From a virus (lineage: Duplodnaviria > Caudoviricetes): 64,000 nucleotides of DNA. Below the pieces are notes generated by a model, which saw nothing but the letters and a program-made list of their open reading frames with translations, was not told the origin of the DNA and made no database searches. The stretch lies in the IMG/VR virus record IMGVR_UViG_3300031088_000758, one strand, 5' to 3'. Positions within the stretch are counted from its first letter, which is position 1, and each line of letters starts with the position of its first letter. Shown here piece by piece: positions 21,470-56,736 of this stretch. A program made the position numbers and the translations under genes.

Positions 21470-23401
21470 TTGGGTATGACTGAAAAGAAAATGCTATCTG
21501 ATTATCCTAAGCTTGTTAATGAATGGGACTATGAAAAGAACATTGGTTTAGATCCTCATGTGGAGTCTTTTTCGGGAAGAACTAAAATTTGGTGGAAGTG
21601 TTCTTTAAATCATTCCTGGATGTCCATTCTTAGTAATCGAATAAAAGGTTCTCAATGTCCTTATTGTTCAGGAAGCAAAATCTTAGCAGGTTTTAATGAT
21701 GTTTTTACTGTCTCACCGGAATTAATAAAAGAATGGGATTTTCAAAGAAACAATGAAATAAAAATTGACCCATTGACATTAGGTATTGGAAATCATGCAA
21801 AAGTATGGTGGAAATGCTCTAAGGAATTTCATTCTTATGAATCTTCTGTAGCTTCAAGGATTCGCGGAAGGTCTTGTCCTTACTGCTCCAATAAAAAGGT
21901 TCTTGTAGGTTTTAATGATCTTGCTACTCACAATCCAGAGCTTTTAGAAGAATGGGATTATGAAAAGAATTCTTTAAAACCAGAAGATATTACGCCTGGA
22001 TCTGATAAAGAAATTTATTGGATTTGTAATAAGAAACACTCTTATTTGATGTCAGCACAACGTAGGACTAATAAATCAAATTCTCGCGGGTGCTCTGTTT
22101 GTACAGGCAAAAATGTTGTAAGATCAACTTCTATATTAGATATGCCTGAAATATTGAAATTTTGGGATTTTGATCGTAATAAAGTTGATCCTATGACAGT
22201 TCTGCCAGGCAGCAATAAAAAATATTGGTGGGTCTTTGACTGTGGACATAGCTGCCAGAAATCTCCAAAGTCTATAAAAAATGGTTCAAAATGCCCTTAC
22301 TGTGCTGTTGGTAATACTCAGCTATTGGAAGGATACAATGATTTAGCTACAAAAGCTCCAAATCTTGTGGCTGAATGGAGTGAAAATAATAAAAACTTGC
22401 TACCTTCGAATTTTTTATCTGGTTCTAAGAAGAAAGTTTGGTGGAAGTGTCAAAAAGATCATGAATGGCAAGCTGTAATTGATAATAGATATAGGCGAGT
22501 CGCATCTTGTCCTCAATGTTCTTCTAAAGGAACTTCGAAATTAGAAAAGGAAGTTCAAAACTTTATAAGAAGTATTCTTCCAGGCTCAATTTCTGTTGTT
22601 TTTAACTCTTATCAAATAATTAAGCCACAAGAGCTTGATATTTACATTCCTGAGAAAAGGATAGCAATAGAGTTCAATGGTTTATATTGGCATAGTGAAG
22701 CAACAGGCAAGGATAGAAATTACCATTATGATAAATGGAAAAAATGCCAAGATCAGGGTATTCAATTAATCACTATATGGGAAGATGATTGGCGTAATAA
22801 TAGAAAGATTGTTGAGTCCATGTTGAAGCATAAGATTGGTTTTTCTGATAATATGAGAGTTTATGCTAGGAAGACTTATGCTAAATTAGTTGACAATTTT
22901 GAAGCAAAAAATTTCTTAAATTATCATCATATTCAGGGTTTTAAAAATATTACAAAGAGTTTTGGGTTATTTGACAAAAGTAATGATGTTTTAGTTGCTG
23001 TTATATCTTTTTCTGTTGATAAGAATGTAGCAAGTTTAGATAGGTATGCTACTTCTTTTTCAGTAGTTGGAGGTTTTACAAAGTTGTTGAATTATGCTGT
23101 TAATGAGATAAGAAAAAGCAATTCTGAAATTGATATTATTACAACTTTTGCTGATCATGAGGTCAGTGATGGTGGTTTGTACAAGAAGAATGGCTTCATT
23201 GTTGATTCTCATGTAAAGCCTGATTATAAGTATATTTATAAGAATCAGAGATGCCATAAATTTTTGTTTAGGAAGAAAAGATTCGAAAAAGATTCTGATT
23301 TAGTGTTTGATGAGAATATGACAGAGAAAGAGTTGGCGGATGTCAATAATATATATAGAGTTTGGGATTGCGGTAAAACCAAGTATGTGAAGAAAGTTTA
23401 A
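21470..23401 (+). CDS. Zinc-ribbon repeat protein with PD-(D/E)xK/Vsr-like nuclease (probable free-standing homing endonuclease) and C-terminal VYARK domain
   Basis: Five EW...WWxC..H.....CPxC repeats; ELDIYIP..IAIEFNGLYWH and IWEDDW. Confidence 0.75.
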   Translation: MGMTEKKMLSDYPKLVNEWDYEKNIGLDPHVESFSGRTKIWWKCSLNHSWMSILSNRIKGSQCPYCSGSKILAGFNDVFTVSPELIKEWDFQRNNEIKIDPLTLGIGNHAKVWWKCSKEFHSYESSVASRIRGRSCPYCSNKKVLVGFNDLATHNPELLEEWDYEKNSLKPEDITPGSDKEIYWICNKKHSYLMSAQRRTNKSNSRGCSVCTGKNVVRSTSILDMPEILKFWDFDRNKVDPMTVLPGSNKKYWWVFDCGHSCQKSPKSIKNGSKCPYCAVGNTQLLEGYNDLATKAPNLVAEWSENNKNLLPSNFLSGSKKKVWWKCQKDHEWQAVIDNRYRRVASCPQCSSKGTSKLEKEVQNFIRSILPGSISVVFNSYQIIKPQELDIYIPEKRIAIEFNGLYWHSEATGKDRNYHYDKWKKCQDQGIQLITIWEDDWRNNRKIVESMLKHKIGFSDNMRVYARKTYAKLVDNFEAKNFLNYHHIQGFKNITKSFGLFDKSNDVLVAVISFSVDKNVASLDRYATSFSVVGGFTKLLNYAVNEIRKSNSEIDIITTFADHEVSDGGLYKKNGFIVDSHVKPDYKYIYKNQRCHKFLFRKKRFEKDSDLVFDENMTEKELADVNNIYRVWDCGKTKYVKKV

Positions 23402-24298: not shown

Positions 24299-24392
24299 TT
24301 TAAATTTTCTCAGCGTTTTTAAAGTTTCTAAAATATGTTTAAGGCCCCTGGCTCATAAAACGAGGTTTTACAAAAAACTTTTCAAATAAACA

Positions 24393-24445
24393 AATTTACC
24401 CTCCTAAAAGCTTGCTATTTAACGAAGCTTTTAGGAGGGTAAATT
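24393..24445. terminator. Bidirectional terminator between convergent units
   Basis: aatttaccctcctaaaagctt ... aagcttttaggagggtaaatt (21-bp stem). Confidence 0.75.
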
Positions 24446-24512
24446 GTAAGCGATTATCAGGCTTAGAGAGATTATAAATATTTCTTTAAATTTAATCGAA
24501 TTAATGTTTATT

Positions 24513-25085
24513 TTAACACTTTGATTGTACCCTATTCACTTTTGTTTCTTCACGTATCTTTTTGAGCAATCTTAGTCTATCTTCTAACTGTTGTATTTCA
24601 TTATCTCCGTAGTACAGATAATGCAACCTTCGAGAGCGTTTCTTGTCTTTATATATGTCTTTTCGTAATTCTTTCAAATAAACTGAGAAAGGTTGACGTA
24701 TGTTATTTTGGTGTAAGTAGAAATGGTATTTATCGTGTGAAAGAGTAGGGTGTTCTTTATGTGTAAAGCGGATATACCCATTATCTAATGTTTCAATAGT
24801 ATAATCATTAAAATCTTTAATAAAGATCCAATTGAAATGTCCGCGACCAGTGTTTATGTAAGATAATGTTTGTGTTGAATCTTTTATCGGATTATAGTAT
24901 CGTAAATTACCGTTTTTGTCTTCTATTGCATTGTATGATTTTTTTGCAAGGTTCAAACATACTTGTTGTAATTCTGAAATTCTTTTTACAACATCTCTTA
25001 TCGTTAAATCATGTGTGTAGGACTGGTGGGGAGCTTCATCCTTAATGATGAACTTTGTAGTACTGGTTTCTTTAACATTGTTCAT
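24513..25085 (-). CDS. Hypothetical protein (4th gene of the Pth operon)
   Basis: ORF; ATGA overlap with the upstream gene. Confidence 0.7.
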   Translation of the reverse strand: MNNVKETSTTKFIIKDEAPHQSYTHDLTIRDVVKRISELQQVCLNLAKKSYNAIEDKNGNLRYYNPIKDSTQTLSYINTGRGHFNWIFIKDFNDYTIETLDNGYIRFTHKEHPTLSHDKYHFYLHQNNIRQPFSVYLKELRKDIYKDKKRSRRLHYLYYGDNEIQQLEDRLRLLKKIREETKVNRVQSKC

Positions 25086-25672
25086 TTTTTAATCTCTTTC
25101 TTGTAGTTTTCTTTTTGTGTCATTTCTTGTATGATTCTTGAAGCTTTTTGTTCTTGTTGAACCGTAATTTTTTCTTGAATTTTTTGTAGTTTTTGGTTTT
25201 CTCTGAGCAATTTTTCAATCATTTTTTCATTTTTTTTGATTTCTGAGACAGAGTTTTTACGAGTTTCTTCCTTCACTCTATCATTATGTTGTTTAATTTT
25301 TTGACGAATAAGTTTTGCGAAATCCCTATCACTCATATGGAAGAATTTGCGGGGAACTTTGAACTTCTTTACCTTGTCAGTGTTTCCGAGAAAGTATTCA
25401 AATTCAAAAATTTCTTCATAGGACGAAAAAGAATGTACTTTAAATCGTTGTATGTAATATAAGTTGAGTGTGAGGAATGAAAAATCATTTTCAAAAATTT
25501 TGTTTTTTGTCTCAAGGTCAACGTTTAACTTCCTCAAAATACTATTTGAAATAAGTATAAGATTTTCTACTTTTTTGTAAAGTAATTTATTAAATACACT
25601 CATTCTTTTTTCAATTTGTGCTTTTTCTTCTTGTAGCTTATTTATCTCTTTGAACTGTGATTTTATATTCAT
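25082..25672 (-). CDS. Hypothetical coiled-coil protein, paralogue of 25669..26202
   Basis: MSDRDFAKLIRQKIKQH versus LSNREFAKLVRQQIKKH; ATGA overlap. Confidence 0.7.
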   Translation of the reverse strand: MNIKSQFKEINKLQEEKAQIEKRMSVFNKLLYKKVENLILISNSILRKLNVDLETKNKIFENDFSFLTLNLYYIQRFKVHSFSSYEEIFEFEYFLGNTDKVKKFKVPRKFFHMSDRDFAKLIRQKIKQHNDRVKEETRKNSVSEIKKNEKMIEKLLRENQKLQKIQEKITVQQEQKASRIIQEMTQKENYKKEIKK

Positions 25673-26202
25673 GATGCTTGACCTGATTTCTTTTTCATTT
25701 TATACATATGATTAATTTCGCTTTCCAAAGCGTTTAAAGATTTTGTTTTATGTTTGAGGATTTCATCAAAATTTTGTAAAGTATTTTGTTGCTTTTGAAT
25801 TTTATGTTTTTTAATTTGCTGTCTGACTAATTTAGCAAATTCTCTGTTGCTAAGCTTTAACAATGATTGGGGAATATCCTGAATAAAGTCTTCGTTTCTT
25901 GACCTTGATAAAGTTCTTTTACGAAGGATAATCTCTATATAGTCATTATTTATACTTTGAATGCCAAAACGATATGCTGGTCTTATTGCTTCAGTATAAT
26001 TCAACCATTCTAGTTCTTCAGTGTGTATATTATTGTAATAATAAATACGGTTGTTTTTTCCAAAAGATTTTTTTCGTATTGAATTAGCTATACACATCAT
26101 TTCATGAAGCTTTTTGTTATAAAAATTCTCAATTTCGTAAATTTTTTCTTTACAATCGTTGTAATTATTAATCATTTGTTGGGTTTTAGTGTTATTTTTC
26201 AT
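25669..26202 (-). CDS. Hypothetical coiled-coil protein
   Basis: ORF whose ATG overlaps the TGA of the Pth-like gene. Confidence 0.7.
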   Translation of the reverse strand: MKNNTKTQQMINNYNDCKEKIYEIENFYNKKLHEMMCIANSIRKKSFGKNNRIYYYNNIHTEELEWLNYTEAIRPAYRFGIQSINNDYIEIILRKRTLSRSRNEDFIQDIPQSLLKLSNREFAKLVRQQIKKHKIQKQQNTLQNFDEILKHKTKSLNALESEINHMYKMKKKSGQAS

Positions 26203-26579
26203 TGTTCTACCTCTTCTTCGTTGTGGAAAGATTTACCAGCCAAAGGAAGGCGTGACAATAATCTCCGATTAGCTGTATGTGGTACAAACGCTAAAGAGGT
26301 GATTGAGTAATTTAAATCAGGTTCTCGGAAACATATAACATCGAGTTTTTTGTTTTGCGCTTCTTCATATAATTCTACAAGGGATTTTTCATCTTGTGTT
26401 TCAAGCGCAACTATATATTGGCTATTATTGTGCCATTTTGAGAATTCATTTGGTCTATAAATAGAAAAATCAGCGATAGCATGACTTATCTGAGCGATTT
26501 TATAGCCAGAAGTCAGATCACTGTGTGTAATTAAGTAGAGGGGTAATCTTGATTTGTTAGATTCGTAAGCCTAGGTCAT
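26199..26579 (-). CDS. Pth2-family peptidyl-tRNA hydrolase with an in-frame amber (TAG) at codon 3; absent from the ORF track
   Basis: Manual translation: MT*AYESNKSRLPLYLITHSDLTSGYKIAQISHAIADF...KWHNNSQYIVALET...FREPDLNYSITSLAFVP...LLSRLPLAG. AAAGGA SD upstream of ATG 26579; no later ATG/GTG/TTG before the conserved core. Confidence 0.8.
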
Positions 26580-26634
26580 TTTGAGTATTTCCTTTTCAGT
26601 AGTGTTAGTGTTTAGTGAAAATATTTTATTTTCG

Positions 26635-26706
26635 TGCTTCTGGTCAGAATTGAACTGACTAATAGCGGGTTTAGAGTCCGCTGCTTATCCATTTAGCATC
26701 AGAAGC
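26635..26706 (-). tRNA. tRNA with CUA anticodon (amber suppressor / Pyl-like); CCA not encoded
   Basis: GCTTCTG/CAGAAGC acceptor stem; GCT/AGC D-stem with GG in the loop; GCGGA-CTCTAAA-CCCGC anticodon arm (one A-C mismatch); GTCAG-TTCAATT-CTGAC T arm; discriminator A. Confidence 0.88.
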
Positions 26707-26741
26707 ATAGTAAAAAATGCCATTTTTAACATCTTTTACTA

Positions 26742-26770
26742 ATTATATCAAAAGATTATTTATTTGTCAA
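26742..26770 (-). promoter_or_regulatory. Consensus sigma70/SigA promoter for the tRNA(CUA)-pth operon
   Basis: Minus strand TTGACA-17 bp-TATAAT with TG extension, about 35 nt upstream of the tRNA. Confidence 0.8.
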
Positions 26771-26773
26771 ATA

Positions 26774-27337
26774 TCAAGCCATGGATCCTAGTATGATAAT
26801 AAATACAAAGAAAACAAACCATAGAACTATAAAGAATAACTGAATACCAGAAACAATCAAGCCTACTAGCGAAAGTGTTTTTCCAGTAGAATCATTAGTG
26901 TTTTTTGATTCGTTATATCCCATCCAAGAAAGTATTAATCCTACTGGAAAGAATATAAAGCTGAATATTAAGCCTAATAATGCTTTAATATTCAGTTCTT
27001 GGTTTGGAGCACTATAGCTTGAAGAGTAGGAACTCGAAGCCGTTCCTGGCTGTGTCCATTCTGGCGCGTTGTATTGTGCCTGTGGCGGGTTTTCTTCGTA
27101 TGGGTCAGAAGAAGGGCTATTATGGCTTGTAGGCTCGTTTTGAGAGGTATGAGAAGTCTCTGGTGAAGAACCTATACTATCTGAATAATTGTCAGGGTAA
27201 GAATTCGGTTGTACATAAGATGGTGCTGAATTCGCTGAGCTAAACATTTCATTATCATAATTTGGTAAATTTTGAGGAGTATGATTTTCTTTATTCGTGC
27301 TCTCACCATTGTTGTTATATGTATTGGGTTGTGTCAT
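26774..27337 (-). CDS. DUF4190-like membrane protein
   Basis: Pro/Ser/Asn-rich N-terminus, then ALLGLIFSFIFFPVGLILSWMG...GKTLSLVGLIVS. Confidence 0.75.
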   Translation of the reverse strand: MTQPNTYNNNGESTNKENHTPQNLPNYDNEMFSSANSAPSYVQPNSYPDNYSDSIGSSPETSHTSQNEPTSHNSPSSDPYEENPPQAQYNAPEWTQPGTASSSYSSSYSAPNQELNIKALLGLIFSFIFFPVGLILSWMGYNESKNTNDSTGKTLSLVGLIVSGIQLFFIVLWFVFFVFIIILGSMA

Positions 27338-27387
27338 ATATTCCTCCTTAATTGATTATAAAGTTATGTTTTGTAATATCTTTAAAA

Positions 27388-27732
27388 TCAATTATATTCG
27401 CCAATGTAGTCTTCTTTGTTGATTTTTTCAATTTCATTCAGGTTTTTTCGAGAATTATTGTTTAATTCTTTAAACTCTTCTATTAATTGAATTGCTGTTG
27501 CCTTAATATCTGAAGGTTGAGTTACCTCTAGCAAACTATCAGTCATATAATTGCTTGTTCTTGTATTATAGAATTCGGGCAATGGTCTGGGAATAATCGC
27601 ACTGAGGATAGCTTCTTTTGTGTCATTCCTCCGTAGCGACATGATCAACCATCCTTTGCCAAAATTCTCTATTTTAAAATAATGGTTTTCTGGTGGTTTT
27701 TCAATTACTAATTGCATTTTTCGTCCTTTCAT
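27388..27732 (-). CDS. Hypothetical protein
   Basis: ORF within an operon. Confidence 0.6.
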   Translation of the reverse strand: MKGRKMQLVIEKPPENHYFKIENFGKGWLIMSLRRNDTKEAILSAIIPRPLPEFYNTRTSNYMTDSLLEVTQPSDIKATAIQLIEEFKELNNNSRKNLNEIEKINKEDYIGEYN

Positions 27733-28469
27733 GATGATTGGCGAAGTGGTGGATAAATTTCTTTAGCATTACCTGCTTTGTAAAGTTGAGATTCTCTGCC
27801 ACCTTCAATTTTTGATGAACGTTTGTCATCAACGGATTCAAGTAAGTGAGGAACGCTTTGGATTTTTCGTCTAAAGTTGCTTGGAACAATTTTTTCGCCC
27901 CAGACGATTTCGTATACTTTTCTAAGTTCGCTAATTGTAAAAGTATCATCATCTAAGAAATGGTGAGCCACAGGTGCGTACTCAATTTTTGATCTGACTC
28001 GGTTTAGTCCATCTTCTATAATTGTTTTATGGTCAAATGCTAATTCAAAATCTTCAAGAACGTCTTCCACAGCAAAGAAACGCGCTTCATCAGCATCATC
28101 TCCAGCTTTAGGTGTGCTAGCATGAGGAATAAGAGCTACATAGGCTGTTGATATGACGTATCCACGAGGATCCCGAACTGGGCTTCCGTATGTCTTTAAT
28201 TGTTCAAGATATCCATCAGCAATTTTTAAATTAGTTTCTTCGACTAATTCACGAGCAGCAGCTTCATCGAGATTTTCTTTTGTATCTACAAAACCACCAG
28301 GTAATGCCCATTTTCCTTTGTGTGGATGTCCTCCGCGCTTTACAAGAAGTATAGATAGTTGATTATTCCTGATTGTAAAGATAGCAAGATCAACAGTACC
28401 AGCAATAGTAGGATATTTGCTCATATCGTAATTTTTAAGAAACTCTTCTTCTGTGATTTCGGTGTTCAT
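27729..28469 (-). CDS. NrtR-like Nudix hydrolase / winged-helix regulator
   Basis: WALPGGF, AAARELVEET, RDPRG, LAFDH; C-terminal FTISELRKVYE...SNFRRK. Confidence 0.88.
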   Translation of the reverse strand: MNTEITEEEFLKNYDMSKYPTIAGTVDLAIFTIRNNQLSILLVKRGGHPHKGKWALPGGFVDTKENLDEAAARELVEETNLKIADGYLEQLKTYGSPVRDPRGYVISTAYVALIPHASTPKAGDDADEARFFAVEDVLEDFELAFDHKTIIEDGLNRVRSKIEYAPVAHHFLDDDTFTISELRKVYEIVWGEKIVPSNFRRKIQSVPHLLESVDDKRSSKIEGGRESQLYKAGNAKEIYPPLRQSS

Positions 28470-28499
28470 TGTAATTCTCCGTATCTTCGATTTATCTGA

Positions 28500-29024
28500 T
28501 CAGTATACTTTAGTTTTGTTAATAATATTGTCTTTGTTTAAAATCCAGAAATTTGCTTGTATGTATCGAGATTTTTCAACTTTAAAAATTCTTTTCCATG
28601 ATTCTTCTTTAAGGTTTCCAGTAAGATTGAAATAATATTCGAAGGATTCTTCATCATCCTCATTTTCTGGGATACCTATGTCGTTTAACACATAATGCCA
28701 TTTGTCAAAGTCAGATAATAAAACTTCTTTATCAGGTATTTCAACTTCTAATATGTAATCATTTTTTGTCAAATTTTTGTAATATGAAGTTCTTCTATCT
28801 ATTTTATAAGGTTTTCCACGATAAGTGTGCCATGCCCATATAGGATAGGTTATTTCTTCGTTGCTTTTGGGAATTGAAGAATTCATTATTTTGGATAACC
28901 ATTTATAAGAGTTTTCAAATTCGCATTCTTGAATAAGTTCTGATTTTTCTGGATCACATATGAAATAATTCTTTTCATCAATTTCTTGAATTACTGCTTC
29001 GGGTTGAATAGTGAATAGTCTCAT
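28500..29024 (-). CDS. DUF3841-like protein
   Basis: YPIWAW, VLLSDFDKWHYVLN, SWKRIF, IQANFW. Confidence 0.75.
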   Translation of the reverse strand: MRLFTIQPEAVIQEIDEKNYFICDPEKSELIQECEFENSYKWLSKIMNSSIPKSNEEITYPIWAWHTYRGKPYKIDRRTSYYKNLTKNDYILEVEIPDKEVLLSDFDKWHYVLNDIGIPENEDDEESFEYYFNLTGNLKEESWKRIFKVEKSRYIQANFWILNKDNIINKTKVY

Positions 29025-29206
29025 TCTAAACCTCCGTCATCAATACCTTTCCAGTAGGGTATTGATGATTGCGATTTTATTTCTTCATGCCATTTTATAT
29101 GTTGTTTTCGAGCGGGAGTTATTGATCCACATATCAAACATATGAACAGCTTAGTTTCTTTCTCCGTTTTTGGGTTTATCTTAGGAAGTTCTTTAAACTC
29201 AACCAT
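29021..29206 (-). CDS. Small C2H2-type zinc-finger protein
   Basis: CLICG...HIKWH. Confidence 0.55.
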   Translation of the reverse strand: MVEFKELPKINPKTEKETKLFICLICGSITPARKQHIKWHEEIKSQSSIPYWKGIDDGGLE

Positions 29207-29221
29207 ATCACAATCACAACC

Positions 29222-29767
29222 TTATTCGTTATTCATTTTCCTATTATCATCAATTTTTTGTTGAATCTCTTTGTAGATTTCAGGATCAAATTCAGGAATA
29301 TTTAATTCATGGTTTTTGAAAATATTAGTTCTTTCTTCCATTATAAGTATTTCTTCATGTGCTTTTTGTACATTGTTAGCAAGCTCAAAAGATTGTCCAA
29401 AGTTTCCTTCGTTAACGTATTTAGTGTATTGCGCGAATACTTCATTAAAATTATTCAATGTTTTTTCAGAGTCAAGTTTAGGGTCATAATTGATATGAAT
29501 CAAAACTTGTTTAACAGCGTCTTCTTTTACCCCAGAAGCACCATTCGGTAGTCTTACTATTTGTTCTAGTCCATGTTTTGCAATTAGTGGTTTGAGAAGG
29601 TGTGGAAAATTAGTTTCTTCATTTGGAAAAGTATCAATGTTTACACCTATCCATCCACAGGAACAAGAAGGATGGTATTGAGGAGGTTCTCCCCATCCAA
29701 GTACATTTATAACTGCTTTGTGCTGAGAATCGTTGCTTATGTATTCATTGTTGGACATTTTTACCAT
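29222..29767 (-). CDS. Hypothetical protein (CSCGW motif)
   Basis: ORF with SD. Confidence 0.6.
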   Translation of the reverse strand: MVKMSNNEYISNDSQHKAVINVLGWGEPPQYHPSCSCGWIGVNIDTFPNEETNFPHLLKPLIAKHGLEQIVRLPNGASGVKEDAVKQVLIHINYDPKLDSEKTLNNFNEVFAQYTKYVNEGNFGQSFELANNVQKAHEEILIMEERTNIFKNHELNIPEFDPEIYKEIQQKIDDNRKMNNE

Positions 29768-29789
29768 CCTTCTTGTTCCTGTTTTATGC

Positions 29790-30365
29790 TCAGATTACTT
29801 TAATGCCGTTTTCAGGAAGATCGTAATCTAATGAGTTATCCACTCGATCTGAATCAATCCCCACAGTATAATCAGACCAAACAGTTGTATTAAATCCTTC
29901 TTGAGCTGCATCAAGAGCTGTAGCTTTTACACAATGCTCAGTAGCAATTCCTACAACAGTTACATCAGATACTTCAAGGACACGAAGAACTTCGGTTAGA
30001 GTTTGTCCCTCTACTGTCTGTCCCTCAAATCCTGAGTAAGCAGCTTCGTACATTCCTTTACGAATATTGATATGAGGAACAGATTCTAAAGCCTTCTGTA
30101 AAACTGGCACAATTTCTGAGCCTTTTTCTTCGGCAACACAATGAACCGGCCAGGTGTCCACAAAATCAGGATTCTCGGAGAAATGTGTTCCTGGGTCAAT
30201 ATGCCAGTCTTGAGTAACTACAATGTGATCAAACATCTTTTGGAAAGTGTGAGGAACTTTGTCTGCTAAACGCTCAGCAACAAGTGTTCCACCATCAACA
30301 GCCAATGAACCACCCTCAACAAAATCATTTTGGACATCTACAATAATAAGCGCATTTTTAGTCAT
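29790..30365 (-). CDS. pncA: Nicotinamidase / pyrazinamidase
   Basis: VDVQNDFVEGGSL, QDWH, WPVHC, YSGF, GIATEHCVKATALDA. Confidence 0.95.
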   Translation of the reverse strand: MTKNALIIVDVQNDFVEGGSLAVDGGTLVAERLADKVPHTFQKMFDHIVVTQDWHIDPGTHFSENPDFVDTWPVHCVAEEKGSEIVPVLQKALESVPHINIRKGMYEAAYSGFEGQTVEGQTLTEVLRVLEVSDVTVVGIATEHCVKATALDAAQEGFNTTVWSDYTVGIDSDRVDNSLDYDLPENGIKVI

Positions 30366-30415
30366 GATAATTTATCTCCTTTTTAAATTAAACAATAATA
30401 TATTTTTATATTTTC

Positions 30416-30640
30416 TTACATTTCTTCGATGTAGTCATCCATATAAGACCTAAGCAAACTCAAATCAGAACGTAAATTTTCGTATTTTTCTGTAATTTGT
30501 TTAACAAGTTCAAAGAATTCTGGGTTCTCTTCTTCTTCAAGCATTGTATGATTCATACCGTATTCTGTAAAACCATAATCTATACCTTCATATTCAAGTT
30601 TGCTACAGAAGTCTCGAACACTCATCTTTGCATCATTCAT
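30416..30640 (-). CDS. Hypothetical protein
   Basis: Short ORF overlapped with the upstream gene. Confidence 0.6.
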   Translation of the reverse strand: MNDAKMSVRDFCSKLEYEGIDYGFTEYGMNHTMLEEEENPEFFELVKQITEKYENLRSDLSLLRSYMDDYIEEM

Positions 30641-31170
30641 TGAGTCAGCCTCTCCTTCGTCCAGTCAATAATCTTTACAATATCCTTTTTAGTAAGCCCC
30701 ACACGTCCATTCGTATGAATAATTAATGGTAGCTCCCTAAAATGACCTCTGATGTAATCACCCCAGAAGAAAGGTGCTAAATCATCAATCCAAATAAAAG
30801 GACGAGGGTTTTTAGCTTGATCTTCTAGAATATATTCAGCTTTCCAACGAGTCCACTCCATCTTGCTTCCAGCATCTTTGTTAAGAACTGCTTCAGTGTG
30901 TTCAGAAAGGTTCTTAAATCCCATGATTTCTGAAGCTTGTACAATGTTGCTACCATCATTCCAAGTAGTATGCCAAACAAAATCATACAAACCTGTTTCC
31001 AGTAGTTCAGACATGCTCTTCACAACCTCTGGATTCCACTTGATTTCATCCTTGTTTCGTAGAAAATGACTATTTTCAATTTCAATGGTTGCTGAAGCGG
31101 TTGCTGAACTATCAGAAACGTTAAAGACACCATCAAAATCAGAATAAATAACAATCTTAGCAGATTTCAT
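30637..31170 (-). CDS. HAD-superfamily phosphatase (RNA-repair 'Swiss Army Knife' type)
   Basis: DFDGV, WHTTW, WK, FIWIDD, GLT motifs. Confidence 0.75.
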   Translation of the reverse strand: MKSAKIVIYSDFDGVFNVSDSSATASATIEIENSHFLRNKDEIKWNPEVVKSMSELLETGLYDFVWHTTWNDGSNIVQASEIMGFKNLSEHTEAVLNKDAGSKMEWTRWKAEYILEDQAKNPRPFIWIDDLAPFFWGDYIRGHFRELPLIIHTNGRVGLTKKDIVKIIDWTKERLTQ

Positions 31171-31289
31171 TTTTTAAATCCTAACATTTTAAAATTACGT
31201 ATGAAAGGATTATAACATTAATTAGAGTTAAAAGTCAAACTGATTATTAGGATTATATGTTGTTAAAATCGAACTGAACAGTTTCAACA

Positions 31290-31493
31290 TCATCTTCCAT
31301 AATAACCATCCGCTTTTTCGATTTTTATTGAAGTGTACCACTCACCTTCTCTGTCTTTAACCAATATAGCTTTGGTTGTACTATTTAAATCAACTGTAAC
31401 AGATGAAATTGAAGAATCTGTTTCTTTCAGCTTTTGTGCAGTATTTAAAAGGTTCTCAATTTGATCTATTGTAATCTTCCCTGAATCATTCAT
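31290..31493 (-). CDS. Hypothetical protein
   Basis: Short ORF overlapping the pncB end. Confidence 0.55.
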   Translation of the reverse strand: MNDSGKITIDQIENLLNTAQKLKETDSSISSVTVDLNSTTKAILVKDREGEWYTSIKIEKADGYYGR

Positions 31494-32808
31494 TGTTGTC
31501 TTCTCCTAACAAAGTAGCCTCAAAAGCGCTTTCTCCGGCTGATGTGAGCTTTGCTTTTAGTGGCAAAGTATCTAATGTTTCTTTATGTAATTTTCTTGAT
31601 TCTTCAATTGTCGGAATATGAAAGTTTCCATTTTCTGCATAAACAATCTGTAATTTTTTGATTGTTTCAGTTTCTTCAATTTCATTAAAAGTGAAAAATT
31701 CTTCAAGAATGATTCCATTAGAATCATACTTACGGTAAGCGTTTTTAAATCCGCCTACTGATTTTTTCCCACTAGCTTTTTTGGCTACTGGTGTCATGTT
31801 CCCTGATTCATCTTCTCTTTCAACTAATTTAAAAACCATTCCAGCAGTAGGATGCCCTGATCCGGTCACAACACGTGTTCCAGCACCTACTTTATCTACT
31901 GGTGTTCCATTGTCTAAAAGTTCAGAAATAGTGAATTCGTCAATGTCTGAAGAAAGTACAATTTTAGTATTCACAGCACCAAGTTCATCAAGGAGTTTTC
32001 TTGCTTTAATGGTTTCTTCGCGCAGATCACCTGAGTCAATTCTAATGCCTCCAAGATTTGAACCAGCTACTGCTACGGCGTTGCGAATTCCTTGTTGAAT
32101 GTCATAAGTATCCACTAGAAGAGTAGTAGATACACCTAATGCCTCTACCTGTGCTTTAAATGCTTCTACTTCATCTTTAAACGCAAGAGTAAAAGCATGA
32201 GCACTAGTTCCTGAGACGGGGATATTATATTTCATCCCCGCTTCTACGTTAGAAGTAGTGTCAAAACCAGCAATATAAGCTGCTCTTGCTGAGTCAACAG
32301 CTGCAATCTCATGAGTTCTCCTTGAACCCATTTCAATAAGAGGCATTCCTGAAGCTGCAACTACCATTCGAGAAGCTGCGCTCATCACAGCTGAGTCGTG
32401 GTTTAAAATAGATAACAAAACTGTTTCGAGAAGAACAGAATCCCCAAAAGTTCCTTGAACAGTAAGAACAGGGCTGTTAGGGAAGAATACATCACCTTCC
32501 CTGTAGCCAATGATTGTTCCTTTAAAAGAGTAGTTTTTAAGGTAGTCAATTGTTTCATCTTTGACAACAGGGTTACTTTGTAGGTATTTTAATTGTTCAT
32601 CCGTAAATGTAAAATTTTTGACAGCAGAAATAGCTCGGTTAATTCCTCCTACTACACCATACCTTCTGCCTGATGGTAGCCTTCTAGCAAACAAATCAAA
32701 CGTTGCTTTTTCGTAAGCTTTTCCTGAAATAATTGCTGCTTGAAGCATAGAAATTTCGTAAAAGTCCGTAAGCAAAGCTGTACTTGTACTGTGATTTTGG
32801 TTAATCAT
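31486..32808 (-). CDS. pncB: Nicotinate phosphoribosyltransferase
   Basis: LLTDFYEISM, EMGSRRTH, GTSAHAF, LLVDTYD, IRIDSGDL, GMVFKLVE. Confidence 0.95.
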   Translation of the reverse strand: MINQNHSTSTALLTDFYEISMLQAAIISGKAYEKATFDLFARRLPSGRRYGVVGGINRAISAVKNFTFTDEQLKYLQSNPVVKDETIDYLKNYSFKGTIIGYREGDVFFPNSPVLTVQGTFGDSVLLETVLLSILNHDSAVMSAASRMVVAASGMPLIEMGSRRTHEIAAVDSARAAYIAGFDTTSNVEAGMKYNIPVSGTSAHAFTLAFKDEVEAFKAQVEALGVSTTLLVDTYDIQQGIRNAVAVAGSNLGGIRIDSGDLREETIKARKLLDELGAVNTKIVLSSDIDEFTISELLDNGTPVDKVGAGTRVVTGSGHPTAGMVFKLVEREDESGNMTPVAKKASGKKSVGGFKNAYRKYDSNGIILEEFFTFNEIEETETIKKLQIVYAENGNFHIPTIEESRKLHKETLDTLPLKAKLTSAGESAFEATLLGEDNNE

Positions 32809-36561: not shown

Positions 36562-38118
36562 CTATTTGTTTGAATTTTTCTCGAAAATCTTGTCGAAAAG
36601 GTTAAATGCTTTTTCTCTCAATTCAGGATTATTTGTGATAGGTAAATGATCATAGTTATTGAACTTTTCCTTATTTAATAATCTATTGTCAATTCCTAAT
36701 CTTGAGGAACTATAATGCTCAAAAAGTCGGGCAAAAATCTCGGTATTTGTTGAAAGATATTCCCTTCGACTCTGAGGTTCACCAGCTGGTATGTCCAAAT
36801 TTTTAGTATATTCTTTGGCAATCTCTCTGAATTCAGGTCTTAATGAAGCATTATCTTTTGCAACAAGGTCAAGATAATGTCCATATTCGTGCACAAATGA
36901 TTCTGAGGTGCGAACATCCACTGCCAAAGAGTTTAAGGAGCTTGCGAAGAGCCCCGTTGCATTATGTTTGCCTAGTTTTTTAACAAATATGCGTGGCTCT
37001 CTTCCTTCTGGAATTGGAGGAAGCTTATCTTTTATCTCGTTGTAGGCTTTTTCAAAGTCCGCTAACTCGCCAGGATCAACATCATTATCTAATTCAACAC
37101 TTTTAAAACTATTGTTTAAAGAGCTGTTTTTCATCATATCTTTGCGGATATCATCTGTATTCTTCTTTCTGTCAAAAACTCCTGCAATCTTTCCCGAATG
37201 TTCCCTAACGTATTTCTTTTGAGCAATGAAGTTAGAGCCTTCTAATTGAGCATCCTCTAACTTTAACAAAGCATCTGTTATCATGTTTCTCGAATAATCA
37301 GATTTTTTTGCTGTCATAACAATTTCGTTCCGCAATGCCTCTGGAATCTCTTCGTTATCCTTAATTGCTTCAATAATAGCTTGGTTTTTCAACGCAAAAT
37401 CTTTGCTTTCAGCTTCAACACTTTCGGTTTTTATAATAGTTTTTATAATGTTTATACCAGTCTTTTTTTCAGCGCGAGCATTTCCAGCCACTTTTCGTAA
37501 ATCAAGTTTATTCCAATATTTATAAGCTTTGAAATATTCATTACCTGTCCTGAATGCATAACGATTAATTTCAGCTCCCGCATTGCCATCAATCACAATT
37601 ACTTCTTGATCTTCTAACTGCGCTTTCCAAGCTCTATTTGATTTAAAACCCTTTAAAAGTCTTTCGTCATTTATTTCTTGAATATTCTCAAATCCTTGTT
37701 CTGAAAGAAGTTGGATAGCCTTTTCGTTGTCAATTCCATTGTCAGAAGGCGCAGACAGTGAAGTGAGAAGTCTTGTACCTAATCCATTAACTCTTGTATA
37801 GCGAAGTTTTAACTCAGCTTCAGTAGCTTCGTTTTTAGCGAATTTTCCTCTTAAATCAGCATTAAAGAAACGGTTAGGTACACCTTCGAAATCTTCGTTA
37901 AATTGTTCTTCTTGTTTCTTGAACTCTTTTACAAAGGAATAACGAATCTTTTTATCTGTCAAACCGTGTTCCTTTGACAATTTTTCTTCTATGAAGGATT
38001 GTGCCTCTGAAACGTTAGTGTAGTGCCTTGTATCATCTTCGTCCTGATAAAACCTGCAGTTTGTTGGCTTTTTTGCTTTGCAAGGTTTCACCTCATCTTT
38101 GTTGTTTATATGGAACAC
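36562..38118 (-). CDS. HCCH-tag protein with C-terminal zincin/LPD1-like domain
   Basis: N-terminus FHIN...C.A....C...HY; C-terminal HEYGH and YLSTNTEIFARLFE. Confidence 0.7.
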   Translation of the reverse strand: MFHINNKDEVKPCKAKKPTNCRFYQDEDDTRHYTNVSEAQSFIEEKLSKEHGLTDKKIRYSFVKEFKKQEEQFNEDFEGVPNRFFNADLRGKFAKNEATEAELKLRYTRVNGLGTRLLTSLSAPSDNGIDNEKAIQLLSEQGFENIQEINDERLLKGFKSNRAWKAQLEDQEVIVIDGNAGAEINRYAFRTGNEYFKAYKYWNKLDLRKVAGNARAEKKTGINIIKTIIKTESVEAESKDFALKNQAIIEAIKDNEEIPEALRNEIVMTAKKSDYSRNMITDALLKLEDAQLEGSNFIAQKKYVREHSGKIAGVFDRKKNTDDIRKDMMKNSSLNNSFKSVELDNDVDPGELADFEKAYNEIKDKLPPIPEGREPRIFVKKLGKHNATGLFASSLNSLAVDVRTSESFVHEYGHYLDLVAKDNASLRPEFREIAKEYTKNLDIPAGEPQSRREYLSTNTEIFARLFEHYSSSRLGIDNRLLNKEKFNNYDHLPITNNPELREKAFNLFDKIFEKNSNK

Positions 38119-55325: not shown

Positions 55326-55510
55326 AATAAATCTCCTAAATAGAACTTCATTTTCTTGTTTTTCTAACAAAAACTTAAACAATAGAACCTACTGCCCTAA
55401 ACAACATTATTTTGTCCTTGTTTACCGATTCGAGAACAATATTTGAAAATCTACTTTTAATAAATTTGATAAACTATTCCACAGAAAAAACGAAAGGGCC
55501 TGCTAAAACA

Positions 55511-56736
55511 ATGAAAGAATATAATGATGAACTGTGGCAAAAACTTGAAAAAGAATATTCATCAAAAAACGATAATCCCTTTTCAAAAATAACTCCCGGA
55601 TCTCATAAAATTTATCAATGGATATGCGAAAACCATGAAGAAACATATAGCAGCAGTGCAGCTGCAAGGTTCAGAGGACAAAACTGTCATTACTGCTCAA
55701 ACAACAAGATTTTAGTAGGATACAATGATCTAGCCACTAAACATCCAGAATTTTTACAAGAATGGGATTATGAGAAGAATGATATAACCCCGCAACAAGT
55801 TCAACCTAAAAGCAGCAAAAAAGCATGGTGGATTTGTCAAAAAGGACACTCTTATCATCAACATATATATAAACATACAGATGGAAGAAAATGTCCGTAT
55901 TGCGCTGGAAGAAAAGTGCTAGAAGGCTTTAATAACATAGAAAACGAAAACTTAATCAAAGAATGGGACAAAAAACTAAACAGTAAAACAATCAGTGAAT
56001 ACACAAATGGTTCAAACCATATTGCCTACTGGATTTGTCCGTTGAACCACTCTTACAAAGCATCTATATATAATAGAACTCAAAGAAACTATGGATGTCC
56101 TTATTGCAGTGGAAGAAAAGTTCTTCAAGGTTTCAATGATCTTAAAAGCCAAGCTCCTGAAATCCTTAAAGAATGGGATTATGAAAAAACGATCATCTAG
56201 AACCTACAAAAATAACATACAAAAGCACTAAAAAAGCTTGGTTCAAATGTTTAAGTTGCCATCATGAGTGGAGAACACCTATCTATAACCGAAGCGTTTT
56301 AAAAACAGGATGCTCTCAATGTGCTTATAATGTAACTGTGTCAAAAGGAGAATTAGAGCTTAGAGAATTTGTTCGAAAAATAGTTAATGTAGAAATTGAG
56401 TTTAACAATCGAACTATTCTACATCCGATGGAAATAGATATCCACATACCAAGTTTAAGGATAGGAATAGAGTACAATGGCGATTATTGGCATAGCGAAG
56501 AAAAAATACAACAATTGAAGAATATGTCAGCTGTTGGCTATCATTGTAGGAAAATAATTATGGCGAAACAAAAAGATGTTCTTCTCCTTATGGTATGGGA
56601 AGATGATTGGAAGAATAACACCGGGAAAGTTCAAGAATATTTAAAGAAAGTTTTTCATTCATCAAATGAGGTTCTTTCTGTACATGAAATCGAAGTTCCA
56701 TCTATTCTGGCAAAAACTGAAAGTGATATTATTTAA
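55511..56736 (+). pseudogene. Zinc-ribbon repeat endonuclease split by a 1-nt frameshift near 56185 (ORFs 55412..56200 + 56338..56736)
   Basis: Adding one A to the A6 run restores EWDYEKNDHLEPTKITYKSTKKAWFKC..., continuous into SKGELE...EIDIHIP...IEYNGDYWH...WEDDW; paralogue of 21470..23401. Confidence 0.75.

What the first reader, a model, noticed from the sequence alone, without database searches (positions are those of the whole stretch)
26199..26770. Amber-suppressor tRNA directly upstream of a peptidyl-tRNA hydrolase gene whose third codon is TAG
Seen, on the minus strand: a perfect TTGACA-17-TATAAT promoter, a 72-nt tRNA with anticodon CUA (26706-26635), and 55 nt later SD-ATG ACC TAG followed by 123 open codons with Pth2-fold motifs (LYLITHSDL, AQISHA, FREPDL, ITSLAF, LSRLPL). 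There is no alternative start before the conserved core. Known: Pth recycles dropped-off peptidyl-tRNA, and two-codon minigenes (lambda bar type) promote drop-off. Inference: the hydrolase is made only when the co-transcribed tRNA out-competes RF1 at codon 3. This would be a self-contained, stop-codon-gated switch sensing RF1 activity or tRNA charging. Without suppression the mRNA is a Met-Thr minigene, which suggests feedback. Standard gene callers miss or truncate the gene.
Basis: partly seen in the sequence, partly recalled or inferred. Interest (0 to 1): 0.93.

Follow-up and report, generated by a model that had tools for sequence, protein, structure and literature searches.

The report
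Stop-codon-gated phage tRNA-hydrolase gene
A giant phage that otherwise uses the normal genetic code keeps the stop codon UAG as the third codon of a small tRNA-hydrolase-like gene and places its own UAG-reading tRNA just in front of it, so the enzyme is probably made only while that tRNA overrides the stop; this would give the puzzling suppressor tRNAs of standard-code phages a conserved target.

Summary
On the minus strand lie a perfect sigma-70 promoter, a canonical tRNA with anticodon CUA (26635-26706), a 55-nt spacer, AAGGA, then ATG ACC TAG and 123 open codons. The read-through product passes Pfam PTH2 and folds as Pth2.

The window comes from a relative of a complete 345-kb jumbo phage and reads well in code 11. 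This is the only credible gene with an internal TAG.

The TAG is not a lesion:
- Four close relatives keep tRNA(CUA) + ATG-NNN-TAG while codons 2 and 4 vary.
- dN/dS after the TAG is 0.12-0.30, with synonymous sites saturated.
- 22 lineages of the family carry a TAG at codon 2-6, always followed by a purine. They include cultured Serratia, Yersinia and mycobacterial phages and 460-735-kb uncultured phages.
- 17 of these lineages have a UAG-reading tRNA within 4 kb.

Best reading: a translational AND gate, in which the enzyme and the coupled downstream genes are made only when the phage suppressor tRNA beats RF1.

What the gate senses, which amino acid is inserted and what the enzyme cleaves are all untested. 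One huge phage has the TAG but no detectable suppressor tRNA.

I found no description in the papers searched. This scan has already noted the same pairing on other DNA (96 notes, at least 58 genomes).

The parts
26742..26770 (-). Sigma-70-type promoter: TTGACA, 17 nt, TATAAT, with a TG extension
   Evidence: 12 of 12 matches, the only perfect site in 24300-27500. Promoter-like TTGACA...TATAAT sites also precede the tRNA in L001-L004.
26635..26706 (-). tRNA with anticodon CUA (26674-26672). Features: G1-C72, C2-G71, discriminator A73, 5-nt variable loop, A31-C39 mismatch, no encoded CCA.
   Evidence: ARAGORN; Rfam RF00005 50.3 bits. Cloverleaf across 8 relatives: 96% of cells paired, 9 of 19 pairs with changes on both sides, 0 of 500 shuffles as high.
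26580..26634 (-). 55-nt spacer between tRNA and start codon, holding AAGGA (26594-26590) 10 nt before the ATG. No terminator-like site is predicted in it.
   Evidence: Rfam finds nothing in the spacer at E<=1.
26571..26579 (-). ATG ACC TAG: start codon, variable codon 2 and the conserved in-frame amber codon (26573-26571), followed by G at 26570
   Evidence: Relatives read ATG CAA TAG A, ATG TCA TAG G and ATG ACG TAG G. The base after the TAG is a purine in all 22 lineages examined.
26199..26579 (-). Amber-gated PTH2-like gene (126 aa if the TAG is read through; TGA stop at 26199-26201)
   Evidence: Pfam PF01981 30.8 bits. AF2 pLDDT 91.8. Foldseek top 15 hits are all Pth2 or Pth2-like chains. 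dN/dS 0.12-0.30.
25669..26202 (-). First downstream gene (177 aa, unknown family). Its ATG overlaps the PTH2-like TGA as ATGA, which suggests translational coupling.
   Evidence: The family is conserved directly after the gated gene in L001-L004, G001 and L106.
25082..25672 (-). Second downstream gene (196 aa), a paralogue of the same unknown family, with an overlapping start
   Evidence: AF2 pLDDT 91.1: long helices plus a three-stranded sheet. No PDB fold match.
24513..25085 (-). Third downstream gene (190 aa), the overlapping last member of the co-oriented chain
   Evidence: It gave no BLASTP hit at E<=1e-3 to the other family members. It was included in alignment A6.

Best explanation
This is a suppressor-tRNA-gated operon of a standard-code jumbo phage.

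One promoter transcribes the tRNA(CUA) and, 55 nt later, an mRNA whose third codon is UAG. Ribosomes that start at the ATG meet UAG with only fMet-Thr on the P-site tRNA. If RF1 wins, nothing useful is made, and the genes behind, joined by ATGA overlaps, are poorly translated. If the matured and charged phage tRNA(CUA) wins, the full Pth2-fold protein is made and translation can pass on to the coupled genes.

The cassette is therefore an AND gate, or coherent feed-forward loop. Output needs both the transcript and a working suppressor tRNA. This delays and sharpens expression and ties it to the tRNA(CUA)/RF1 balance.

Shown:
- the anatomy;
- the Pth2 fold;
- conservation of the TAG;
- selection on the ORF;
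- linkage to suppressor tRNAs;
- absence of genome-wide recoding.

Inferred:
- that the tRNA is expressed, charged and decodes UAG;
- that read-through is the only route to the protein;
- that coupling extends the gate to the downstream genes;
- what the enzyme hydrolyses.
For: (1) Anatomy is confirmed, and no canonical start codon follows the TAG before the conserved core.

(2) Four close relatives (L001-L004; proteins 66-79% identical) keep promoter, tRNA(CUA), spacer, SD and ATG-NNN-TAG. Codon 2 is ACC, CAA, TCA or ACG and codon 4 is GCT, ACA or GCA.

(3) Between the window and L001-L004, dN/dS after the TAG is 0.13-0.18 with dS>=1 (0.12-0.30 over all pairs). The frame is therefore translated, and the TAG has survived saturation of silent sites.

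(4) The tRNA is under structural selection.

(5) This is not recoding.
- The window has 60 well-packed code-11 genes and only this one carries an internal TAG.
- The related complete 345-kb phage G001 gains almost no coding coverage if TAG is read as sense (0.856 to 0.882). Its lone tRNA(CUA) sits 127 kb from its 42-tRNA array, directly before GTG CTG TAG.
- Neighbouring genes on relatives' contigs lack internal TAGs, with one exception in L108.

(6) The same early TAG appears in distant family members.
- All 8 database proteins tested that show Q at residue 3-5 are really TAG.
- 39 of 85 full-length representatives show such a Q.
- It is present in five uncultured 460-735-kb phages and in Serratia phage BF and Yersinia phage fHe-Yen9-04.
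- It lies directly before the annotated GTG start in mycobacteriophages Bxz1 and Myrna.

(7) A UAG-reading tRNA lies within 4 kb in 17 of 22 lineages that carry the early TAG, on several different tRNA scaffolds.

(8) The base after the TAG is a purine in 22 of 22 lineages. From my own knowledge (Bossi 1983; Miller and Albertini 1983), this context favours amber suppression.

(9) An engineered circuit of the same design works in E. coli (PMC7969014).
Against: - Nothing is experimental. Expression, processing, charging and decoding by the tRNA are all assumed, and reads over the TAG could not be checked.
- The uncultured 635-kb phage LR745206 has TAG at codon 4, but none of its 60 ARAGORN-called tRNAs reads UAG. 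Either the tRNA is not always phage-borne or another route to the protein exists.
- In several lineages the codon after the TAG is GTG or ATT, which could serve as a start. In Bxz1 and Myrna the SD spacing fits the GTG after the TAG better than the ATG or GTG before it.
- In G001 and L011 the gated ORF keeps only the first helix of the family and lacks the EPD motif, yet the gate persists. The enzyme itself may therefore not be the point.
- G001 ends 40 of 373 genes in TAG, so a strong suppressor would be costly.
- The canonical Pth2 lysine is not conserved.
Confidence: 0.72

Rival explanations
1. Leader-minigene model. ATG-NNN-TAG is a two-codon upstream mini-ORF that ends at the TAG. The hydrolase-like protein is then made by termination-reinitiation or by a non-canonical start just after it, without any suppression. 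The nearby tRNA(CUA) would serve another purpose.
For: In several lineages the codon after the TAG is GTG (L106, L108, Bxz1, Myrna) or ATT (huge phages, fHe-Yen9-04), both of which can start translation. In Bxz1 and Myrna the SD spacing favours the GTG after the TAG. LR745206 has the TAG but no detectable suppressor tRNA.
Against: In the window clade the codons after the TAG are GCT, ACA or GCA. The first possible near-cognate start (ATT) lies inside the first conserved strand. In Serratia phage BF the next codon is AAT. The mini-ORF is always in frame with the gene. The stop is always TAG, never TAA or TGA, and a tRNA that reads exactly that stop is linked in 17 of 22 lineages.
Confidence: 0.1
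2. Pseudogene. A chance nonsense mutation (for example CAG to TAG) inactivated a Pth2-like gene that happens to lie next to a suppressor tRNA.
For: A single in-frame stop very early in a gene is what a fresh lesion looks like. Gene callers treat it as one.
Against: The TAG is kept in 22 lineages whose silent sites are saturated. dN/dS after it is 0.12-0.30. Codons on both sides of it vary.
Confidence: 0.02
3. Genome-wide TAG reassignment (code 15). The phage reads TAG as an amino acid in many genes, and this TAG is just one of them.
For: Phages with suppressor tRNAs and reassigned TAG are well known (PMC13037316; PMC10879173). TAG is rare as a stop in the window, ending 2 of 60 genes. Gene callers chose TAG=Q for some relatives' contigs.
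Against: No other credible gene in 64 kb has an internal TAG. G001 shows no gain in coding under TAG=sense and ends 40 genes in TAG. The gated genes carry exactly one TAG, always within codons 2-6, and none in the other 110-290 codons.
Confidence: 0.03
4. Closed-loop homeostat, a functional refinement of the gate. The Pth2-like enzyme acts on the suppressor tRNA itself, or on products of UAG read-through. Its suppressor-dependent synthesis would then feed back to hold read-through at a set level.
For: The gene and the tRNA travel together over long evolutionary distances and on different tRNA scaffolds. Standard-code jumbo phages carry such tRNAs with no other known target (PMC5852040). The family is a tRNA-ester hydrolase fold.
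Against: There is no evidence on the substrate. G001 and L011 keep the gate although the enzyme's catalytic half is gone. The coupled downstream family may be the real cargo.
Confidence: 0.13

Closest known systems
Stop-codon-recoded phages with phage-encoded suppressor tRNAs (TAG read as Gln, 'code 15': crAss-like, Lak and some jumbo phages)
   Same: A phage-borne tRNA(CUA) is thought to let in-frame UAG codons be read, and this has been proposed to time the translation of certain genes (PMC13037316; PMC10879173).
   Different: In those phages dozens to hundreds of TAGs are scattered through many, mainly late, genes, and coding density collapses under code 11. Here the genome is standard-coded. 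A single TAG sits within the first six codons of one small gene family, with the tRNA next to it.
Orphan amber suppressor tRNAs of standard-code jumbo phages (for example Xanthomonas phage XacN1)
   Same: tRNA(CUA) genes occur in a jumbo phage that uses the normal code.
   Different: [quoted passage not shown] Here a conserved target is proposed: an early TAG that gene callers hide. XacN1 itself was not examined.
Jumbo-phage PTH2 (Iyer, Anantharaman, Krishnan, Burroughs, Aravind 2021)
   Same: [quoted passage not shown]
   Different: That survey does not mention an in-frame amber codon or any link to suppressor tRNAs. Many carriers are simply unannotated.
Synthetic suppressor-tRNA coherent feed-forward 'leak dampener' (Ho et al. 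2020/21, NAR)
   Same: The inducing input drives both a suppressor tRNA and the regulated gene, which carries silent nonsense mutations, so output needs both (PMC7969014).
   Different: That circuit is engineered. This one is natural, conserved in phages, and gates a tRNA-directed enzyme.
prfB (RF2) autoregulation through an in-frame UGA, and lambda bar two-codon minigenes
   Same: An early in-frame stop makes the output depend on how efficiently the release factor acts. A two-codon ORF with a strong SD resembles a bar minigene, whose toxicity depends on Pth (own knowledge).
   Different: prfB uses a +1 frameshift, and its product is the very factor being sensed. Bar minigenes are free-standing, are not in frame with a gene, and have a defined last sense codon. 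Here codon 2 varies and the frame continues into a conserved protein.

Membership tests
PTH2 peptidyl-tRNA hydrolase family (PF01981) | Sequence match to the family profile above the curated threshold | tested here: met
   30.8 bits against a gathering score of 23, residues 20-100. The family profile A3 hits solved Pth2 chains at E 9e-12 to 2e-4.
PTH2 peptidyl-tRNA hydrolase family (PF01981) | Pth2 alpha/beta fold | tested here: met
   AF2 pLDDT 91.8, pTM 0.82. The Foldseek top 15 are all Pth2 or Pth2-like chains: 2zv3, 1q7s, 3erj, 1wn2, 1xty, 1rlk, 1rzw and 2gax (TM 0.55-0.74; 0.64-0.74 for the best). The next hit is at E 0.2.
PTH2 peptidyl-tRNA hydrolase family (PF01981) | Conserved active-site residues of canonical Pth2 (GK...AQ..HA and D-A-G motifs) | tested here: inconclusive
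   AQxxHA is kept, and Q30 and H33 are invariant in 69 sequences. The Gly-Lys lysine aligns with Gly-Tyr. The Asp of DAG aligns with the invariant E86 of an EPD motif.
PTH2 peptidyl-tRNA hydrolase family (PF01981) | Hydrolysis of peptidyl-tRNA | not testable with these tools
   Needs an enzyme assay.
Amber suppressor tRNA | Canonical cloverleaf with a 7-nt anticodon loop and anticodon CUA | tested here: met
   ARAGORN; Rfam 50.3 bits. The loop is CUCUAAA with U33 and A37, and the G18 G19 and T-loop elements are present.
Amber suppressor tRNA | Structure maintained by selection | tested here: met
   9 of 19 pairs have compensatory changes, 96% of cells are paired, and 0 of 500 shuffles score as high.
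Amber suppressor tRNA | Is expressed, CCA-tailed, aminoacylated and decodes UAG | not testable with these tools
   CCA is not encoded. The amino-acid identity is unknown: G1-C72, C2-G71, A73 and a short variable loop, with no clear parent among the 42 tRNAs of G001.
Code-15 (TAG-reassigned) phage | Many conserved genes interrupted by in-frame TAG; coding density recovers when TAG is read as sense | tested here: not met
   One gene in the 64-kb window. G001 coverage is 0.856 against 0.882, with 40 TAG stops.
Pyrrolysine system (ARAGORN's label 'tRNA-Pyl') | tRNA-Pyl architecture (short D loop without GG, 3-nt variable loop, no TΨC) and pylS/pylBCD genes | tested here: not met
   The tRNA has GG in the D loop, a GTTCAATTC T-loop region and a 5-nt variable loop. 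The label follows from the anticodon alone. The pyl genes were not searched for.
Lambda bar-type toxic minigene | Short SD-led ORF of two to a few codons that ends in a stop | tested here: met
   AAGGA-10 nt-ATG ACC TAG. This is a match in form only.
Lambda bar-type toxic minigene | A specific last sense codon or tRNA that is sequestered; a free-standing ORF | tested here: not met
   Codon 2 varies (ACC, CAA, TCA, ACG, CTG, ACT, TTA, AAA, GAG, AAG, TCG, ACA). The mini-ORF is always in frame with a conserved protein.
Suppressor-tRNA coherent feed-forward gate (synthetic 'leak dampener' design) | The same input drives the suppressor tRNA and a gene with an early nonsense codon | tested here: met
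   One perfect promoter lies upstream of the tRNA. No promoter with 10 or more of 12 matches, and no terminator-like site, was predicted between the tRNA and the gene on that strand. This rests on sequence only; no transcript was observed.

The most novel reading that the evidence does not exclude
The tRNA(CUA) and the Pth2-like gene form a self-contained, autoregulated module. The enzyme's synthesis reports how well UAG is being read through. The enzyme, perhaps together with the coupled unknown proteins, acts back on the suppressor tRNA or on the products of read-through. In this way standard-code giant phages would hold a controlled level of stop-codon suppression in the infected cell. This would be the conserved purpose of their otherwise 'orphan' suppressor tRNAs.
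Probability: 0.2. Interest if true: 0.9.

Novelty: new variant of a known kind. Interest (0 to 1): 0.8.

Why it matters
Amber suppressor tRNAs are repeatedly reported in jumbo phages that use the standard code. Their targets have been an explicit open question; the XacN1 authors found none (PMC5852040).

A single conserved early UAG in a Pth2-like gene, hidden from gene callers, offers a concrete target. It would also be a natural example of a translational AND gate built from a tRNA and a stop codon.

The idea is directly testable, because cultured phages carry the same pairing: Serratia phage BF, Yersinia phage fHe-Yen9-04, the Erwinia Eneladusvirus phages and mycobacteriophages Bxz1 and Myrna.

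It also has practical consequences:
- A whole family of phage genes is missing from, or truncated in, annotations.
- Contigs that carry it can be mis-assigned to code 15.
- The cassettes are a source of natural suppressor tRNAs with matched, well-suppressed UAG contexts.

Tried and rejected
- The loose tRNA DNA pattern gave 83 loci, of which only two (L011, L084) were true tRNAs.
- No whole genome is held for the window.
- The amino-acid identity of the tRNA could not be found by similarity to the 42 tRNAs of G001: identity was at most 70% with no clear parent.
- A tblastn with the Serratia BF gene failed because I gave wrong coordinates.
- P0128 as a query did not reach Xanthomonas phages, so XacN1 was not examined.
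- The downstream 196-aa family has no Pfam or PHROG hit, no Atlas lead and no PDB fold match despite a confident model.
- Rfam found no ribozyme or other RNA in the tRNA-gene spacer.
- Pseudogene and genome-wide recoding readings were rejected on the evidence given under the rival explanations.
I did not look for virion genes in the window.
Full report
**What is there**

On the minus strand of the window lie, in order:
- a perfect TTGACA-17-TATAAT promoter with a TG extension (26770-26742);
- a 72-nt tRNA with anticodon CUA (26635-26706; ARAGORN; Rfam tRNA 50.3 bits, E 1.3e-9);
- a 55-nt spacer with AAGGA 10 nt before the start;
- ATG ACC TAG (26579-26571), then 123 open codons to a TGA at 26199-26201.

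No ATG, GTG or TTG lies in frame after the TAG until the far 3' end, so the mechanical ORF list shows a 571-nt 'empty' gap. The stop of this frame overlaps the ATG of the next gene (ATGA). Two more co-oriented genes follow with overlapping starts.

**What the protein is**

Read through, the product (P0001, 126 aa) passes Pfam PTH2 (30.8 bits against a cut-off of 23). It also matches phage families phrog_1866 and phrog_3668.
- With an alignment of 69 relatives, AlphaFold2 gives pLDDT 91.8.
- The 15 best PDB matches are all Pth2 or Pth2-like chains (MJ0051, Bit1, AF2095, PH1539, Sulfolobus Pth2 and others; TM 0.55-0.74). After them nothing scores better than E 0.2.
- A profile search of 1.84 billion representatives finds 1289 relatives.
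- In 69 of these, Q30, H33, W49, E86 and D88 are invariant.
- Against solved Pth2 enzymes the AQxxHA motif is kept. The canonical Gly-Lys becomes Gly-Tyr, and the Asp of DAG aligns with E86 of an EPD motif.

So this is a Pth2-fold, tRNA-ester-hydrolase-like protein of a divergent, mostly phage clade. Its substrate is not established.

**What the element is**

The window has 34% G+C and is tightly packed with code-11 genes.
- 33 of its 60 proteins have tblastn matches, in syntenic blocks, in IMGVR_UViG_3300045988_179014.
- That record (G001) is 344,889 bp, has inverted terminal repeats, and CheckV estimates it 100% complete.
- The matches include the pncB-HAD-pncA-DUF3841-NrtR block that abuts the tRNA.

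The window is therefore from a jumbo-phage relative.

**Is it recoding?**

No.
- Only this gene has a credible internal TAG in the 64 kb.
- G001's coding coverage barely changes if TAG is read as sense (0.856 to 0.882), and 40 of its 373 genes end in TAG.
- G001 has 42 tRNAs and a tmRNA clustered at 83-99 kb. Its single tRNA(CUA) lies alone at 226.6 kb, directly upstream of GTG CTG TAG.
- In the window TAG ends only 2 of 60 genes, against 41 TGA and 17 TAA. Both TAG-ending genes have a TAA 4 or 10 codons later. This fits a genome that lives with a suppressor, but it is weak evidence by itself.

**Is the TAG a lesion?**

No.
- Four close relatives recovered through the protein databases have the same promoter-tRNA(CUA)-spacer-SD-ATG-NNN-TAG layout (L001-L004, from four sequencing samples).
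- In these relatives codon 2 is ACC, CAA, TCA or ACG and codon 4 is GCT, ACA or GCA.
- Between the window and these relatives silent sites are saturated (dS 1.0-1.4), while dN/dS is 0.13-0.18 (0.12-0.30 over all pairs).
- The frame behind the TAG is therefore translated, and the TAG itself has been held fixed.
- The tRNA shows 9 of 19 stem pairs with compensatory changes and 96% of cells paired, which none of 500 shuffles reached.
- The acceptor stem GCUUCUG/CAGAAGC with A73 is identical from the window to G001.

**How wide is it?**

Much wider than this clade.
- Every database protein that I traced to DNA and that shows 'Q' at residue 3-5 is really TAG (8 of 8: P0002, P0003, P0018, P0030, P0085, P0088, P0032, P0139).
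- 39 of 85 full-length representatives carry such a Q.
- Other representatives are truncated calls that start just after the TAG (P0004-P0007).
- tblastn against deposited phage genomes finds the gene in five uncultured 460-735-kb phages with TAG at codon 3 or 4.
- It also finds the gene in an unannotated gap of the cultured Eneladusvirus jumbo phages. These are Serratia BF and Yersinia fHe-Yen9-04, where I read TAG at codon 4, and six Erwinia phages, whose DNA I did not read.
- It is present in some 200 mycobacteriophages of the Bxz1 type. In Bxz1 and Myrna, ATG TAG or GTG TAG lies immediately before the annotated GTG start.

In all, 22 lineages have a TAG at codon 2-6, each followed by a purine. 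Two family members have none: LR745208 and the T4-like phiAS5.

**Linkage to a UAG-reading tRNA**

Among the 22 lineages with an early TAG:
- Directly upstream: the window clade, G001/L011, L106, L109 and L108. The L108 tRNA has anticodon UUA.
- Downstream by 7 nt to 3.6 kb: L128, Myrna, Bxz1, L126, LR756500, LR756501, Serratia BF and fHe-Yen9-04. The fHe-Yen9-04 record itself annotates 'tRNA-Sup-CTA'.
- Too short to tell: three contigs.
- No such tRNA within 4 kb: two huge phages that I did not scan further, plus LR745206.

LR745206 was scanned whole. It has 61 Rfam tRNA matches, 60 of them called by ARAGORN when introns are allowed, and none reads UAG. That is the one clear exception.

The tRNAs fall on several scaffolds. 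Most share G1-C72, C2-G71, A73 and a short variable loop. The inserted amino acid cannot be told from sequence.

**Mechanism**

The best-supported reading is a translational gate. The protein needs both the transcript and a matured, charged tRNA(CUA) that out-competes RF1 at a UAG placed where the nascent chain is only two to five residues long.

Because one promoter drives both parts in this clade, the cassette has the logic of a coherent feed-forward loop. This is the design that synthetic biologists built to remove leaky expression (PMC7969014).

The ATGA overlaps suggest that the gate also governs the genes behind.
- A 170-200-aa family with an SDRDFAK motif follows the gated gene in the window (two recognisable copies, and a third gene of similar size with no BLASTP match to them), L001-L004, G001 and the distant L106.
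- Its confident model (pLDDT 91) has two long helices and a small sheet, and matches no solved fold.
- In G001 and L011 the gated ORF has lost all but the first helix of the Pth2-like fold, yet the tRNA, the TAG and the downstream family remain. This hints that the gate, not only the enzyme, is what is conserved.

What the gate senses is inference only. It could be RF1 activity, tRNA integrity or charging, or simply time.

The two-codon minigene form is real. However, codon 2 is not conserved and the TAG position varies, so sequestration of one particular tRNA is unlikely. A looser feedback, with the enzyme acting on suppressor tRNA or on read-through products, is not excluded. I give it about one chance in five.

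**Known or new?**

- Jumbo-phage PTH2 has been noted (PMC7824862; PMC3622015).
- Suppressor tRNAs in jumbo phages have been noted (PMC11662467).
- 'tRNA-Pyl' has been listed without comment for the Erwinia phages (PMC7760394).
- The XacN1 authors looked for targets of their two tRNA(CUA) genes and found none (PMC5852040).
- Eight full-text searches found no paper that links an early amber codon in a Pth2-like gene to a phage suppressor tRNA. Subscription journals are not covered.

Within this scan the same pairing has been reported before on other DNA: 96 notes in at least 58 genomes. Several follow-up reports reach the same reading, and one later check put the bold reading at 20 in 100. Those notes are not independent evidence.

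**Verdict**

The feature is real, conserved and not an artefact. I class it as a new variant of stop-codon read-through control by phage suppressor tRNAs. It is unproven experimentally but directly testable in cultured phages.

Noticed in passing
window 24513-26202 (-); L001 6324-7404; L084 50-631 (-); L106 1878-2405: A family of 170-200-aa proteins of unknown function (conserved SDRDFAK motif) always follows the gated gene, often with ATGA overlaps and in one to three paralogous copies. The AF2 model is confident (pLDDT 91): two very long helices and a three-stranded sheet. It has no Pfam, PHROG, Atlas or PDB match.
   Followed up: partly
L084 621-893 (-) = G001 about 226.2-226.5 kb; L011 11537-11809: In the 345-kb relative the amber-gated ORF (GTG CTG TAG..., 90 aa) keeps only the first helix of the Pth2-like family and lacks the EPD motif. 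The tRNA, the TAG and the overlapping downstream gene are all retained.
   Followed up: partly
window 1-64000: Stop-codon use is 41 TGA, 17 TAA and 2 TAG in DNA of 34% G+C. TGA dominance is unusual for AT-rich DNA. Both TAG-ending genes (36562-38118 minus strand, 55412-56200 plus strand) have an in-frame TAA 10 or 4 codons later.
   Followed up: partly
window 27729-32808 (-); L001 263-5339; G001 226.7-230.5 kb: A deamidating NAD-salvage block (pncB, HAD phosphatase, pncA, DUF3841, NrtR-type Nudix; L001 also has nadE) lies immediately upstream of the tRNA and is syntenic in both relatives.
   Followed up: no
L001 5759-5798; L002 944-986; L003 620-664; L004 2201-2243: A conserved hairpin (GATAGAT ... 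ATCTATC) lies between the promoter and the tRNA in four relatives. The window has a different small hairpin there (26712-26736). It may be a processing or regulatory element of the tRNA leader.
   Followed up: no
window 26635-26706 (-): The tRNA has A rather than U at position 8 and an A31-C39 mismatch at the bottom of the anticodon stem. The mismatch is kept in six of eight relatives; G001 and L011 have U-A there.
   Followed up: partly
L124 (Bxz1) 2480-2488; L125 (Myrna) 2471-2479: In mycobacteriophages Bxz1 and Myrna a start-stop pair (ATG TAG, GTG TAG) fills the spacer between the SD and the annotated GTG start of the 'peptidyl tRNA hydrolase' gene. A tRNA(CUA) lies 0.3 kb and 0.13 kb downstream. 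It is annotated as tRNA-OTHER in Bxz1 and as tRNA-Ser in Myrna.
   Followed up: partly
LR745206.1 (W02), tRNA arrays at 342-344, 365-369, 388-390 and 407-408 kb: This 635-kb phage has about 60 tRNAs but none that reads UAG, although its Pth2-like gene has TAG at codon 4. ARAGORN also reports one tRNA with a four-base anticodon 'gtag' and two intron-containing tRNAs.
   Followed up: partly
window 21470-23401 (+): A 643-aa protein with five DUF4379 treble-clef zinc-finger repeats and a weak Mom-like C-terminal region lies just before the strand switch.
   Followed up: no
L108 46-723: On the contig with the tRNA(UUA) version of the cassette, the gene upstream of the tRNA also has an in-frame TAG at codon 10. 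It may be a second gated gene in that lineage.
   Followed up: no
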